DNA from: a virus
Taxonomy: Duplodnaviria; Heunggongvirae; Uroviricota; Caudoviricetes
Reading direction: 5' to 3' (one strand)
Length of the DNA stretch: 4,825 nucleotides
Virus record (IMG/VR): IMGVR_UViG_3300029006_000023
Coordinates: 1 to 4,825 of that record
Shown here: in pieces, positions 1-2,999 of the stretch
How positions within the stretch are numbered: position 1 is the first letter of the stretch
How the letters are laid out: every line of letters starts with the position of its first letter
Translations under genes and position numbers: made by a program
Notes under the pieces: model-generated
What the model saw: the letters and a program-made list of their open reading frames with translations, nothing else
The model's database searches: none
What the model was told of the DNA's origin: nothing

Positions 1-2068
1 CCGTCAGGGTGTATTCCCCGAGCGGCAGGCCACTGAAACGGTGCTCCGTGTCTGCAGTGATAGCGGTGGTCACCAGACGGCTGTCTTCACCGCTTCCGCT
101 GGTCAGTCGCAGACTGAAGCGCACGCCCTTCACCACCCGCGGCGTGTCCCATTTCGCCTGCGCCAGATACTGGCCGTCAGCGGCGCTCACCTCCACCGTA
201 AGGTGCTGCACTGCCGGTGGGATGACGCTGTTCAGGGTGCCTGACTGCGGCTCAAAGCTGGCCCCGTTATCCACGATGGCTTCTTTTTCCGGCACATGCT
301 GCACTGCCGTGATGGCAAAGGTGCCGTCCGTGTTTTCCCGGATGGAGACACAGCGGAACAGGCGACGACGCAGTGACGGCAGGGAGAGTCCCCACACCCC
401 GTATGTCTCCACACCATCCGGCAGGGTACTGACCTGTATCCGGTCCGGCGCGGGGTGTGCAGTGATGTCCACGCTCACCGGCTTACCGCTGCCGTTAATC
501 AGGTTCACCGTCGAAGTACCTGTCTCTGGCAGGCTCACCTCACGGTCCAGTGTCAGGGTGCGGCTGGCGGCATCAATGGACAGGATGCGTCCGCCGGTCA
601 TGGTCCCGGCATAGTCGTTATCACAGATTTCAATAATGTCACCGGGTGTGTGACGCAGCCCCTGTGACCCGAGCGTGAAATCCACCGTCTGCGTTTCCAG
701 CAGTTCGGTCTTTATCACCCACAGCCCGGCACGGTGGGCCTGACCGCGACTGGTGCAGCCGAACGCATCCATCTTCAGCAGGTTGCGCCCGTAGCGCAGT
801 ATGGCGTCCGGGTCTTCCACCAGTTCCGTGGAGGTCTGCCAGCCGTTCTGCGGGTCGGTGTAATTCACCTCCACCGCCGTGTGACGGTCCTTCAGGGCAC
901 TGAAGCTGTAGCGGAACCCCACGCCGTTATCATCCACCACCACATCGCTGTTGGTGTACGGCCACACCACATCCGACGGGCGGTCCTGAACGAACGTCAG
1001 CGTCTGGCCGTTCCATACCGGCATACAGCGCATCGCCGAGCAGAAATCACTGAGGACGTCCCACGCCTTACGCTGTTGTGACAGGTACGCATTAAAGGTC
1101 ATCCGCGGCTCTGTGCCCCCGAAACCATCCGGGACCATCTGGTCGCAGTACTGCCCGATGGCATACAGCGCCCATTTGTCCACATCCGCCGCCCCCAGGC
1201 GTTTTCCCATTCCGTAACGCGGATGAGTCAGCATGTCCCACAGGCACCAGGCCGGGTTGTTGCTGTATGCCGGTTTCAGGCTGCCGTCCCAGATGCCGCT
1301 GTAAGTGCGTTTTTCCGGGTCATAGTTTGACGGCACCTGGATGATGCGACCGCGGATATGGTAGTTCACCGTCATCTGCTGACCGCCAAACTGCTCCGCA
1401 TCCACCTGCAGGCCCACAATCGCCGTGTTCGGGTAGCACTGTTTCACATCGATGATTTCGGTGTATGACGACCACAGCGTCTTATTCTGCAGCTGGTCCG
1501 TGGTGCTGTCCGCCGTCTCCCGGACCATCCGGATGTTAAAAGGACGCTCAGGCAGGTTATCCAGAATCACCGACGCCAGAAACTGCGAGGTGGTCTTGCC
1601 ATTAATGGTGACATCCTTTTCCGTCACCCAGTTACCGTTACGCTGTAACTGAATCAGCAGCCGGACAGAAGCCGGATTACGGTCACCCTCTGACGTGGTC
1701 TGCACCAGTGACTGCACCCCGAAGGTGACCCGCAGGCGGTCAATGTTCGCGGACGTAATGGTGCGCGTCACCGGCTTTGCCTTCGTCACTTCCACGCCCA
1801 GTGCGGTTTCAGCTCCGGAGGACTCAAAGCCTTCGGGTGGTGTCTGCTCCTGCTCCCCGGCGCGCCAGACCGCGGTCACACCGTGTATCACGGGATTACC
1901 GTCCGTGTCCGTCAGCGGGGTTTTGTTCACCAGAATACTCTGCAGTCCCTTCACCGGACCTTCAATCGGCCCTTCACCAATGGCGTCAATCACGCTCATC
2001 ATCTGCGTGGACTTAAGATTGTCCTTTGCCTCAACCGGCGTGTGCGCCTTGCCGCCACCTTTGCCCAC
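1..2068 (-). CDS. J: Tail tip / central tail fibre host-specificity protein J, N-terminal ~689 codons (partial; 3' end lies beyond window start)
   Basis: Not in the ORF track because it runs off the window. My manual minus-strand translation from GTG (complement of 2066-2068) gives VGKGGGKAHTPVEAKDNLKSTQMMSVIDAIGEGPIEGP..., continuing with no stop to position 2. It matches my recollection of the lambda J N-terminus (MGKGSSKGHTPREAKDNLKSTQLLSVIDAISEGPIEGP...) and contains conserved blocks such as CYPNTA, WCLWDMLTHPRYGMGKRLG, DAFGCTSRGQAHRAGLW and AITAVQHVPEKEAIVDNG. An in-frame TGA lies 25 codons upstream of the GTG. An alternative in-frame GTG exists at 2083-2081. Confidence 0.9.
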   Translation of the reverse strand, partial: MGKGGGKAHTPVEAKDNLKSTQMMSVIDAIGEGPIEGPVKGLQSILVNKTPLTDTDGNPVIHGVTAVWRAGEQEQTPPEGFESSGAETALGVEVTKAKPVTRTITSANIDRLRVTFGVQSLVQTTSEGDRNPASVRLLIQLQRNGNWVTEKDVTINGKTTSQFLASVILDNLPERPFNIRMVRETADSTTDQLQNKTLWSSYTEIIDVKQCYPNTAIVGLQVDAEQFGGQQMTVNYHIRGRIIQVPSNYDPEKRTYSGIWDGSLKPAYSNNPAWCLWDMLTHPRYGMGKRLGAADVDKWALYAIGQYCDQMVPDGFGGTEPRMTFNAYLSQQRKAWDVLSDFCSAMRCMPVWNGQTLTFVQDRPSDVVWPYTNSDVVVDDNGVGFRYSFSALKDRHTAVEVNYTDPQNGWQTSTELVEDPDAILRYGRNLLKMDAFGCTSRGQAHRAGLWVIKTELLETQTVDFTLGSQGLRHTPGDIIEICDNDYAGTMTGGRILSIDAASRTLTLDREVSLPETGTSTVNLINGSGKPVSVDITAHPAPDRIQVSTLPDGVETYGVWGLSLPSLRRRLFRCVSIRENTDGTFAITAVQHVPEKEAIVDNGASFEPQSGTLNSVIPPAVQHLTVEVSAADGQYLAQAKWDTPRVVKGVRFSLRLTSGSGEDSRLVTTAITADTEHRFSGLPLGEYTLT

Positions 2069-2072
2069 GGAA

Positions 2073-2080
2073 TCCCCCTT
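2073..2080 (-). promoter_or_regulatory. Shine-Dalgarno for J (AAGGGGGA on minus strand), 4 nt upstream of GTG start
   Basis: Minus-strand sequence reads gaagggggattccGTG; purine-rich SD at appropriate spacing. Confidence 0.5.
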
Positions 2081-2109
2081 CACTGTCCGCTGCCGGACAC
2101 TGTTGATGT

Positions 2110-2141
2110 ACAAAAACAACAGGCACCCCGGAGAGTGCCTG
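2110..2141 (-). terminator. Terminator-like hairpin oriented for the minus strand, ~40 nt upstream of J start
   Basis: Plus-strand caggcac (2120-2126) and gtgcctg (2135-2141) form a 7-bp GC-rich stem with an 8-nt loop. On the minus strand the stem is followed by UUGUUUUUGU (complement of 2110-2119). Function not established. Confidence 0.4.
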
Positions 2142-2179
2142 CATCATGACGGAATAAAAATTCTGAATATCTTCACATT

Positions 2180-2207
2180 TTCACAAACAGCCTGTGGCGC
2201 TTATAAT
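2180..2207 (+). promoter_or_regulatory. Candidate sigma70 promoter on plus strand: -35 TTCACA (2180-2185), 16-nt spacer, -10 TATAAT (2202-2207)
   Basis: Perfect consensus -10 hexamer, -35 matching TTGACA at 5 of 6, spacing 16 nt. Sits in an AT-rich island and is preceded by a tandem TTCACA-TTT-TCACA repeat (2172-2185). Predicted start around 2214-2216. Confidence 0.5.
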
Positions 2208-2213
2208 TTCACC

Positions 2214-2312
2214 GCGCTAATGTTTTTTTGCCCGAGTAACAGAAACAAAAATAACTCCTTAACGTTAATCTTTGTCTGTCCCCGCAGCTCCGCAACTCTG
2301 CGGGATTTTTTT
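2214..2312 (+). ncRNA. Candidate small non-coding RNA (~100 nt), antisense to the tail late operon, in the I-J intergenic insertion
   Basis: Bounded by the promoter above and the intrinsic terminator below. The only ATG (2221) opens a frame with no SD that reads through the terminator without a stop. Contains six consecutive A-R-N triplets (AAC AGA AAC AAA AAU AAC, 2238-2255) and ends in a GC stem plus U7. Confidence 0.4.
2281..2312 (+). terminator. Rho-independent terminator on plus strand
   Basis: cccgcag (2281-2287) pairs with ctgcggg (2298-2304), 7-bp GC-rich stem with 10-nt loop; alternative 5-bp stem ccgca/tgcgg with 4-nt loop. Followed by a single A and then TTTTTTT (2306-2312). On the minus strand the stem is followed by gacagac, not a U-tract, so it is unidirectional. 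Confidence 0.6.
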
Positions 2313-2318
2313 ATGCTT

Positions 2319-2999
2319 TTACCCCTGCCGCCCGATAACCACCACCTTCCCGCCAGCGCCTTCATCACGGGTGCTGACGTCCTGGGATATTCGCCGGGAG
2401 CCAACCAGCATTTCACCGTAAGGCACCGGCATCGGATTACCCTGGGCAATCATGTTATCCAGCGACGAAAAGTAGGTGTTCTGTTTACCGTTATCCGTTG
2501 CCCTGTATTCCGGTGTTTTGGGCTTCGGGGCAAGCATCTGAGCCACACCACCCAGAATCATGCTGGCCCCCAGTGAAAACAGCATCGTGGTGGCAGAAAA
2601 ACCACCGGCTGCCAGGGCTGAACCCCATAACGCCATTGATGCCCCGGCCGTGAAGAACGACCCCACGATGGCCGCCGCCCCCAGCACAATCTGCAGTCCG
2701 CCCTTTCCGGCTCCGGCCAGTCGCGGCACAATGTGGATGACCGTTCCCTCACCCAGTTGTTCGTGAAGACGGGCGTACACCGCCTCCGGTGCCGTGTCCT
2801 CACCGCGAATACGTATCTGGTACCAGCCTTCGTTCATCTGACGGCGGAATCCCGGCATCTGCATCGACAGGGCGCGAATGGCTTCCGCTGCCGTGTTCAC
2901 ATACAGGCTGAGGCGGCGGCCAAATCGTTGTAAATCCCCGTGAAGGCAGATGCGTGCCAGTGGCGGTGACGCCAGACAGAATGCGTTCGTCGTTGCCAT
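2319..2999 (-). CDS. I: Tail tip assembly protein I
   Basis: 226-aa ORF (MATTNAFCLASPPLARICLHGDLQRFGRR...NGKQNTYFSSLDNM...VVVIGRQG) closely resembling lambda gpI as I recall it. Hydrophobic Gly/Ala-rich central segment. Start overlaps the K 3' end by 103 nt out of frame, as in lambda. Upstream GAGAGG could serve as SD. Confidence 0.9.
   Translation of the reverse strand: MATTNAFCLASPPLARICLHGDLQRFGRRLSLYVNTAAEAIRALSMQMPGFRRQMNEGWYQIRIRGEDTAPEAVYARLHEQLGEGTVIHIVPRLAGAGKGGLQIVLGAAAIVGSFFTAGASMALWGSALAAGGFSATTMLFSLGASMILGGVAQMLAPKPKTPEYRATDNGKQNTYFSSLDNMIAQGNPMPVPYGEMLVGSRRISQDVSTRDEGAGGKVVVIGRQG

What the first reader, a model, noticed from the sequence alone, without database searches (positions are those of the whole stretch)
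2108..2312. Oppositely oriented intrinsic terminators bracket the insertion, one just upstream of the J RBS
The plus-strand terminator (2281-2312) ends the candidate sRNA 7 nt from the I stop codon. A second hairpin (stem 2120-2126 / 2135-2141, followed on the minus strand by UUGUUUUUGU) is oriented to stop minus-strand transcription ~40 nt before the J start. A terminator inside a late operon would block J expression unless RNA polymerase is antitermination-modified (lambda Q), so this could insulate J from read-through in the lysogen while being bypassed during lytic growth. It could instead mark the 3' end of a minus-strand transcript, or be a processing site that separates the J mRNA.
Basis: partly seen in the sequence, partly recalled or inferred. 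Interest (0 to 1): 0.45.

Follow-up and report, generated by a model that had tools for sequence, protein, structure and literature searches.

The report
PasB sRNA terminator plus pre-J terminator
Both hairpins are real, but one is simply the terminator of a known prophage small RNA (PasB family) inserted between tail genes I and J, and the other is the terminator-type hairpin that lambda-like phages usually carry just before gene J, so the finding is largely ordinary.

Summary
The window is the M-L-K-I-J tail block of a lambdoid E. coli prophage, on the minus strand, with 250 nt between I and J where lambda has 60 nt.

The plus-strand terminator (2281-2312) belongs to an antisense small RNA with an 11/12 sigma-70 promoter. 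Position, promoter context, terminator arms and 72 of 83 bases match PasB, an Hfq-dependent sRNA shown by northern blot and RIL-seq in EPEC E2348/69.

The minus-strand hairpin (2119-2142, 10 bp, UCCG loop, -18 to -19 kcal/mol, then UGUUUUUGUA) is also real and is kept in nearly all PasB-type junctions.

It is not peculiar to the insertion. Unrelated hairpins with T-runs occupy the same place just before J in lambda, HK97-like phages (79/79 loci), virulent T1-like phages (26/27) and three other phages. One of these is annotated "terminator" by its depositors.

So the sRNA cassette lies upstream of what is positionally the usual pre-J terminator. Read-through by Q-modified polymerase is plausible but inferred. 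Because virulent phages also have the hairpin, lysogen-specific insulation is unlikely to be its main purpose.

Both elements are new members of known kinds; interest is modest.

The parts
2319..2999 (-). Tail assembly protein I gene. This is the longest ORF; RefSeq starts it at 2966. The stop codon is 2319-2321.
   Evidence: ORF list. Pfam Lambda_tail_I, 7e-16. RefSeq annotation of the identical genome.
2161..2180 (+). A/T-rich conserved block directly upstream of the sRNA -35, at the UP-element position. On the late strand it reads AAATGTGAAGATATTCAGAA.
   Evidence: Conserved with two free positions in 190 oriented junctions.
2180..2207 (+). Sigma-70 promoter of the antisense sRNA: TTCACA, 16 nt, TATAAT (11 of 12). 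A second TTCACA copy lies at 2172-2177.
   Evidence: Scan. The -10 context GGCGCTTATAATTTC is identical to that upstream of PasB in E2348/69.
2214..2312 (+). PasB-family small RNA. 2214 is the start predicted from the promoter. 2229-2312 corresponds to the 83-nt PasB species reported in EPEC.
   Evidence: Alignment to E2348/69 PasB (1466343..1466261): 72 of 83 bases identical, same arrangement. Family alignment. No Rfam hit.
2281..2312 (+). Intrinsic terminator of the sRNA: CCCGCAG, 10-nt loop, CTGCGGG, then A and U7.
   Evidence: The stem arms are invariant in 12 diverse family members while the loop varies. The published PasB northern probe is complementary to the equivalent stretch of E2348/69 PasB.
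2109..2142 (-). Late-strand terminator-type hairpin (GCAGGCACUC UCCG GGGUGCCUGU, 2142-2119) plus U-rich tract (2118-2109). It occupies the position of the usual pre-J terminator.
   Evidence: Conserved in nearly all PasB-type junctions. 98.6% of cells paired, with one compensatory pair. Unrelated hairpins sit at the same place in other phage lineages.
2069..2108 (-). J leader: a leader-specific hairpin at 2081-2102, then Shine-Dalgarno AAGGGGGA at 2073-2080.
   Evidence: Fold. This leader type occurs in only a few loci, and other junctions carry unrelated leaders after the same hairpin.
1..2068 (-). 5' part of the tip attachment / host specificity gene J, with a GTG start at 2068. All 689 codons in the window are open.
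   Evidence: Pfam FNIII-A_GpJ, 8.5e-42.

Best explanation
The I-J gap holds two separate elements.

(1) An antisense small-RNA cassette has been added to the late operon. It has its own strong sigma-70 promoter (2180-2207), a roughly 85-100 nt transcript and an intrinsic terminator (2281-2312). It is a variant of PasB, an Hfq-dependent base-pairing sRNA that is expressed from the silent prophage. The plus-strand terminator ends that RNA and supplies its hairpin and U-tail, the usual Hfq-binding 3' end.

(2) The late-strand hairpin (2119-2142 plus U-tract) is positionally equivalent to the intrinsic-terminator-type element that lambda-like tail modules carry immediately before J. The sRNA cassette lies between the I stop codon and this element. 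RNA polymerase that is not antitermination-modified should stop there. Late transcription by Q-modified polymerase should read through to express J.

Shown: the sequences, their conservation, identity with PasB, and the recurrence of a hairpin at this position. Inferred: that the late-strand hairpin terminates transcription in vivo, that Q bypasses it, and what selective purpose it serves.
For: PasB identity:
- The published coordinates put PasB 6 nt after the I stop of E2348/69 prophage PP6, antisense, with J downstream.
- The window aligns throughout, with 72 of 83 PasB bases identical, the same terminator arms, the same U7 tail and the same -10 context.
- In EPEC RNA-seq PasB is abundant and falls 6.8 log2 units in the hfq mutant, while I and J are nearly silent.

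Late-strand hairpin:
- It has a strong fold and a U-rich tail.
- It is kept across junctions whose J leaders are unrelated.
- The T-tract columns are invariant.

Generality: a hairpin plus T-run lies in the spacer before J in every lineage sampled.
- Lambda and lambda-like prophages.
- HK97-like: 79 of 79 loci, against 0-8% in coding-flank controls.
- T1-like: 26 of 27 loci.
- KLB29, where the depositors annotate a terminator, plus Swain and LF82-40.
- The 343-nt class of PasB junctions, which carries a different hairpin.

Need for read-through: in several lineages the stem ends only 17-25 nt before the J start, too close for a promoter, so J must be reached by read-through.

From established knowledge, not tested here: lambda Q makes polymerase resistant to terminators across the late operon.
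Against: - No 3'-end mapping or in vitro termination data for the late strand could be reached.
- Covariation inside the family is weak. One pair changes on both sides and 27 of 500 shuffles do as well. The variants look like two haplotypes plus recombinants.
- Lambda's own hairpin is a marginal terminator by formal rules. Its tail score is -2.4 and the scan tool does not flag it.
- The 851-nt sodC-type junctions have no convincing late-strand terminator before J, so the element is dispensable.
- The exact CAGGCA hairpin was never found next to an I stop without PasB. It may have arrived with the cassette and not predate it.
- Q and its site are outside the window.
Confidence: 0.6

Rival explanations
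1. The late-strand hairpin is mainly an RNA-stability or processing element and not a site of termination. It would protect the upstream tail-gene mRNA from 3' exonucleases after cleavage, or cap the 5' end of a separate J mRNA.
For: It sits at an intercistronic boundary in a long polycistronic operon. Lambda's version has a poor U-tract by formal scoring. The element also occurs in virulent phages, where a strong terminator before an essential gene would be costly.
Against: In every lineage the stem is followed at once by a T-rich run, which a pure stabiliser does not need. In the PasB-type family the T-tract columns are invariant. The two roles do not exclude each other.
Confidence: 0.2
2. 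The hairpin belongs to the inserted cassette and is there to insulate J in the lysogen. It would stop stray late-strand transcripts, such as divergent initiation from the A/T-rich PasB promoter region or read-through across I, and would be bypassed only by Q-modified polymerase.
For: This exact hairpin was found only together with PasB-type modules. It abuts the upstream edge of the PasB promoter region. J is silent in the EPEC lysogen.
Against: Phages with no insertion, and virulent phages, have an equivalent hairpin at the same place. PasB also occurs with a different hairpin (343-nt class), and its remnant occurs with none (sodC class). In junctions with two modules in tandem, the hairpin follows only the module nearest J. 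No late-strand promoter is detected in the spacer.
Confidence: 0.13
3. The hairpin terminates a separate late-strand product encoded within the spacer, either a small protein or a second small RNA antisense to PasB.
For: Two phage records annotate "hypothetical proteins" in the spacer.
Against: Those ORFs differ in frame and position, overlap I or end before the hairpin, and are interrupted in the window. No late-strand promoter is found. No Hfq-bound sense-strand RNA from this spacer is listed in the EPEC tables that are held or in the Sakai CRAC list for Sp10.
Confidence: 0.04
4. The hairpins are chance inverted repeats with no function.
For: Terminator-like patterns do occur by chance: 3.6 are expected in shuffles of the window.
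Against: The fold z-scores are -4.1 and -2.6. Both are conserved across hundreds of loci. The plus-strand one belongs to an experimentally detected RNA. The pre-J position is occupied in 79 of 79 and 26 of 27 loci of other lineages, against 0-8% in most control windows.
Confidence: 0.02

Closest known systems
PasB, pathogenicity-associated small RNA B of EPEC E2348/69 (Pearl Mizrahi et al. 2021, PMC8550237; Zhu, Shabalina and Storz 2026 preprint, doi 10.64898/2026.05.13.724894)
   Same: Same site (between I and J, antisense, 3' end about 6 nt from the I stop), same promoter context, same terminator arms and U7 tail, and 72 of 83 bases identical. The preprint describes PasB as embedded in an operon of phage structural genes.
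   Different: The window copy has a 6-nt insertion and a 4-nt deletion in the single-stranded body and a different terminator loop (AACUC in place of GAUCA). Its targets could differ. Neither paper, as far as I read them, mentions the late-strand hairpin next to it.
Morons of lambdoid phages (Juhala et al. 2000; Hendrix): extra DNA with its own promoter and terminator, placed between genes that are adjacent in relatives and expressed from the prophage
   Same: There are 250 nt where lambda has 60. The cassette has its own promoter and terminator, and its homologue is expressed while the flanking late genes are silent. sodC at the same junction is a classical moron.
   Different: The cargo is a non-coding RNA on the opposite strand. 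No conserved ORF is present.
Terminators read through by lambda Q-modified RNA polymerase (tR' and downstream terminators of the late operon)
   Same: It is an intrinsic-terminator-type signal on the late strand, upstream of an essential late gene, in a lambdoid prophage.
   Different: Its position is deep in the tail genes and not next to pR'. Q dependence was not tested, and equivalents exist in virulent T1-like phages, which are not known to use Q.
Convergent sRNA pairs at the PR' moron site of EHEC prophages (AgvB, AsxR; Tree et al. 2014, PMC4104026)
   Same: These are also prophage-borne, Hfq-associated short RNAs with a conserved 3' terminator and a variable 5' body, placed within the late operon.
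   Different: They lie at a different locus and belong to different families. Rfam holds AgvB and AsxR, and neither matches the window.

Membership tests
PasB sRNA family | Encoded between tail genes I and J, antisense to them, with its 3' end a few nt from the I stop | tested here: met
   PasB is at 1466343..1466261 (minus strand), the I stop at 1466255 and the J start at 1466496. In the window the sRNA ends at 2312 and the I stop is 2319-2321.
PasB sRNA family | Sequence similarity to the 83-nt PasB | tested here: met
   72 of 83 PasB bases are identical, or 81% of 89 aligned columns including gaps.
PasB sRNA family | 3' stem-loop followed by poly-U (terminator and likely Hfq site) | tested here: met
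   CCCGCAG...CTGCGGG plus A and U7. The arms are invariant in 12 family members.
PasB sRNA family | Own promoter upstream | tested here: met
   TTCACA, 16 nt, TATAAT, 11 of 12. The -10 context is identical to E2348/69.
PasB sRNA family | Hfq-dependent accumulation and RNA partners | not testable with these tools
   Known only for the E2348/69 copy.
Intrinsic (Rho-independent) terminator: the late-strand hairpin | G+C-rich stem-loop on the transcribed strand | tested here: met
   10 pairs, 6 of them G-C, UCCG loop, -18.1 kcal/mol alone and -19.3 in context, z = -4.1.
Intrinsic (Rho-independent) terminator: the late-strand hairpin | U-rich tract directly after the stem | tested here: met
   UGUUUUUGUA, tail score -4.1 to -4.5. 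The T columns are invariant in the family.
Intrinsic (Rho-independent) terminator: the late-strand hairpin | Pairing maintained by compensatory change | tested here: inconclusive
   98.6% of cells are paired, but only one pair changes on both sides, 27 of 500 shuffles do as well, and the variants look like recombinants of two haplotypes.
Intrinsic (Rho-independent) terminator: the late-strand hairpin | RNA 3' ends at the U-tract, or termination in vitro | not testable with these tools
   No accessible Term-seq table.
Terminator bypassed by Q antitermination | Q gene and Q-loading site in the same prophage; read-through depends on Q | not tested
   The Q region lies outside the 4.8-kb window, and there are no functional data.
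Moron | Extra DNA between genes that are adjacent in relatives, with its own promoter and terminator | tested here: met
   The lambda spacer is 60 nt and the window's is 250 nt. Promoter and terminator are present.
Moron | Carries a protein-coding gene (classical usage) | tested here: not met
   No conserved ORF. The annotated small ORFs differ between phages and are broken in the window.
AgvB / AsxR anti-sRNAs | Located in the PR' moron site, and matching Rfam RF02702 / RF02703 | tested here: not met
   The locus is different, and the window has no Rfam match at E <= 1 apart from one chance viral hit.
HnrS (EcOnc10-12) | 66-nt sRNA next to the lysis genes of Sakai prophages | tested here: not met
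   EcOnc11 maps just after the endopeptidase gene of Sp10, not at I-J.

The most novel reading that the evidence does not exclude
The terminator-type hairpin just before J could be a deeply conserved control point of lambda-like tail modules, present in lambda-, HK97- and T1-like phages. It would set J dosage or make J and the cargo genes downstream depend on read-through. It would also serve as the recombination joint for swapping host-range modules, and the gap beside it would be the preferred landing site for antisense cargo (PasB, a second sRNA, sodC). A further possibility not excluded here concerns the late transcript after induction. It carries a perfect complement of PasB just upstream of this hairpin, so it could both drain PasB and be cleaved there to release a separate J mRNA.
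Probability: 0.3. Interest if true: 0.5.

Novelty: new member of a known kind. Interest (0 to 1): 0.3.

Why it matters
For this window, the work turns an apparent "pair of terminators around an insertion" into two known kinds of element: a PasB-family regulatory RNA gene, and an ordinary pre-J terminator.

The wider point is modest but usable. The I-J junction of lambdoid prophages is a recurrent cargo site, with at least five states seen here. A terminator-type hairpin before the host-range gene J recurs across temperate and virulent siphophages.

If that hairpin does limit or gate J expression, it bears on how tail-tip stoichiometry is set. It also bears on how prophage cargo downstream of J (lom, tail fibres, nleG effectors in Sakai Sp10) is kept off in lysogens. 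It would additionally be a simple landmark for annotating PasB-like sRNAs, which Rfam 15 did not detect in this window.

Tried and rejected
- **AgvB:** my first guess from memory, prompted by the CA-rich body. Rejected: AgvB lies in the PR' moron site, and the Rfam scan, whose library holds the AgvB and AsxR families, gave no match in the window.
- **HnrS / EcOnc10-12:** rejected because EcOnc11 maps beside the lysis genes of Sp10.
- **Small late-strand protein gene:** the annotated ORFs are not conserved.
- **Promoter overlapping the T1-like terminator:** my reading of a -35 matched only 3 of 6 positions, and the scan tool finds no promoter.
- **Genome-contig scan for diverse J genes:** it returned mostly lambda itself as contamination in unrelated assemblies, so added little diversity.
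- **IMG/VR scan with the KLB29 J protein:** no relatives found.
- **Scan for the CAGGCA hairpin next to an I stop without PasB:** only three chance hits.
- **Literature searches for a described terminator before J:** nothing relevant.
- **Sakai Term-seq and CRAC tables:** the Term-seq supplement is not held, the CRAC list has no entry in the Sp10 I-J spacer, and Sp10 is of the sodC type anyway.
- **Covariation as proof of structure within the PasB-type family:** too little independent variation.

Full report
**What the window is.** The minus strand carries the end of the tape-measure gene, then M (4673-4344), L (4344-3646), K (3640-2897), I (2999-2319) and the first 689 codons of J, which starts with GTG at 2068. 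Pfam confirms Lambda_tail_I and the GpJ FNIII-A domain. The sequence is 100% identical to a prophage in the bovine E. coli strain UTAK-6, where RefSeq places the J start at the same base. All the tail genes abut or overlap except I and J, which are 250 nt apart. In phage lambda that spacer is 60 nt.

**Checking the observation.** Both hairpins exist.
- The plus-strand one is CCCGCAG (2281-2287) / CTGCGGG (2298-2304) followed by A and T7, ending at 2312, 6 nt from the I stop codon. It folds at -12.1 kcal/mol with z = -2.6.
It has ten pairs (2142-2133 with 2128-2119) closing a UCCG tetraloop, and folds at -18.1 kcal/mol alone and -19.3 in context, with z = -4.1 and no shuffle as good. TGTTTTTGTA follows it.
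- Simple tail scores are -4.0 to -4.5 for both.
- They include the longest stem among the window's terminator-like sites and lie in its only sizeable non-coding stretch.

**The plus-strand terminator belongs to a PasB-family sRNA.** An 11-of-12 sigma-70 promoter (TTCACA, 16 nt, TATAAT, 2180-2207) points at the terminator.
- My first idea, AgvB, was wrong. AgvB lies in the PR' moron site and has an Rfam family, and the window has no Rfam match.
- Table S6 of Pearl Mizrahi et al. 2021 gives PasB as an 83-nt RNA at 1466343..1466261 (minus strand) in prophage PP6 of EPEC E2348/69, between E2348C_1436 and E2348C_1437. It also gives a northern probe that lies in the terminator.
- Those two genes are I and J, and PasB ends 6 nt after the I stop, antisense.
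- The window aligns with that locus across the whole spacer. 72 of 83 PasB bases are identical, as are the terminator arms, the U7 tail and the -10 context.
- In that paper's RNA-seq, PasB is abundant and drops 6.8 log2 units without Hfq, while I and J are almost silent.
- A 2026 preprint describes PasB as embedded in an operon of phage structural genes.
- Across the loci I fetched, the family has an invariant 7-bp terminator stem, a variable loop, and a variable body with conserved AACUCC and UUAAUC motifs.
- The 301-nt stretch spanning the spacer matches 1,647 of 5,426 complete E. coli genomes, 549 of them over most of its length, and 147 phage records.

**The late-strand hairpin within this family.** I oriented 190 junctions on a conserved block next to the sRNA promoter. 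Nearly all PasB-type spacers (234-260 nt) carry CAGGCA[C/T]CC, a loop, then GG[G/A]TGCCTG and a T-rich run.
- The stem and T-tract are conserved, while the J leader that follows comes in at least three unrelated versions.
- Pair counting gives 98.6% of cells paired, but only one position changes on both sides (C-G to U-A), and 27 of 500 shuffles do as well.
- The intermediate forms (U.G and C.A) have left flanks that go with the left arm and right flanks that go with the right arm. They look like recombinants, so the hairpin sits on a mosaic joint between the sRNA module and the J-leader module.
- Covariation is therefore weak evidence here.

**The same position in other phages.** This is the stronger evidence.

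| Lineage | Element in the spacer before J |
|---|---|
| Lambda (no insertion) | AAACCGCC-TGCG-GGCGGTTT then TGTCATTTAT, ending about 21 nt before the J ATG. Lambda-like prophages keep it with a TCCG loop. |
| HK97-like mEp390 | GGCCACC-TTCG-GGTGGCT then TTTTTTAT, ending 17 nt before J. Present within 70 nt of J in 79 of 79 IMG/VR relatives; 0-8% in control windows placed in flanking coding DNA. |
| Virulent T1-like | AACCCGC-CTTGC-GCGGGTT then T6-8, in 26 of 27 loci |
| Klebsiella phage KLB29 | Hairpin annotated "terminator" by its depositors |
| Serratia phage Swain, phage LF82-40 | Clear examples |
| 343-nt class of PasB junctions | A different hairpin: CCCCGGTATC-TGCT-GATACCGGGG then TTTCTCTTT |

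There are limits to this evidence.
- Lambda's tail scores poorly (-2.4) and the scan tool does not flag it.
- The 851-nt class has no convincing late-strand terminator before J. In that class an antisense sodC gene has replaced the PasB promoter, as in Sakai Sp10.
- I never found the CAGGCA hairpin beside an I stop without PasB.
- In junctions with two antisense modules in tandem, the hairpin follows only the one nearest J.

**How it most likely works.** The spacer holds an antisense sRNA cassette and, on its J side, what is positionally the usual pre-J terminator.
- The cassette is transcribed from the silent prophage and ends at its own terminator. This is shown for the E2348/69 homologue and inferred for this copy.
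- The late-strand element has the anatomy of an intrinsic terminator. In several lineages it lies too close to J for a promoter, so J must be expressed by read-through.
- In lambdoid phages, read-through is what Q-modified polymerase provides. That rests on established knowledge and was not tested here.
- The element is shared with virulent phages and is missing from sodC-type junctions. This argues against lysogen insulation as its general purpose, and it is not essential.
- The alternatives are a role in mRNA stability or processing, or a cassette-specific insulator. A late-strand small gene is not supported: the ORFs annotated in two phages differ, end before the hairpin, and are broken in the window.

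**Comparison with what is known, and novelty.** The plus-strand RNA is a sequence variant of a described sRNA. The late-strand hairpin is a further instance of a terminator inside a late operon. I found no paper describing the pre-J terminator as a general feature, but at least one GenBank record annotates it. The finding is therefore a new member of known kinds, of modest interest. The recurrence of the hairpin before J and the variety of cargo at this junction are the parts worth a follow-up.

Noticed in passing
I-J spacers of L003 (lambda), window, L013, L008, L136: The I-J junction occurs in at least five states: 60 nt (lambda); 234-260 nt with PasB; about 343 nt with PasB plus an extra segment and a different hairpin; 851 nt with a promoter-less PasB remnant plus an antisense sodC gene (as in Sakai Sp10, ECs_1989); and a form with two antisense sRNA-like modules in tandem.
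   Followed up: partly
L136 about 9830-10130 (also L191, L211): A second antisense module lies 179 nt from the first. It has the same promoter-upstream block and its own terminator-like hairpin (CTCCCG...CGGGAG then CGTTTTTT) but an unrelated body, so it may be another sRNA gene.
   Followed up: no
Hairpin variants in L004, L023 and relatives: Hybrid hairpins (C.A mismatch or U.G wobble) have left and right flanks of different module types. This suggests recombination within the hairpin between the sRNA module and the J-leader module.
   Followed up: partly
J leaders of L043, L148, L006: One J-leader type contains the heptamer CAGACAT repeated one to three times just upstream of the J Shine-Dalgarno sequence.
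   Followed up: no
window 2081-2102 (-) and 2066-2080 (-): This J leader has its own 9-bp hairpin directly 5' of a strong Shine-Dalgarno (AAGGGGGA), and J starts with GTG. Most related junctions start J with ATG behind a different leader.
   Followed up: no
window 2172-2177 and 2180-2185 (+): There are two direct copies of TTCACA at the sRNA -35 region, so two alternative -35 registers are possible.
   Followed up: no
L085-L134: Contigs carrying lambda or lambdoid J genes sit in assemblies labelled Streptomyces, Pseudomonas, Shewanella, Bradyrhizobium, Paenibacillus and others. This is almost certainly lambda or E. coli DNA contamination in those assemblies.
   Followed up: no
L001 (NZ_CP157151.1), gpJ: RefSeq marks J as frameshifted in the source genome, but the 689 codons inside the window are open. 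The defect lies further downstream, and the prophage may be unable to make tails.
   Followed up: partly
L259 1201-1245 and L257 (T1-like spacers): The pre-J terminator is followed by a perfect TATAAT box, but there is no acceptable -35 and the scan tool calls no promoter. It is unclear whether J has its own start there.
   Followed up: partly
L372 435-533 and L373 462-614: The "hypothetical protein" genes annotated in the I-J spacer of phages PhiR12_1 and 1720a-02 are non-conserved ORFs lying antisense to the PasB-family RNA. They are probably annotation artefacts.
   Followed up: yes
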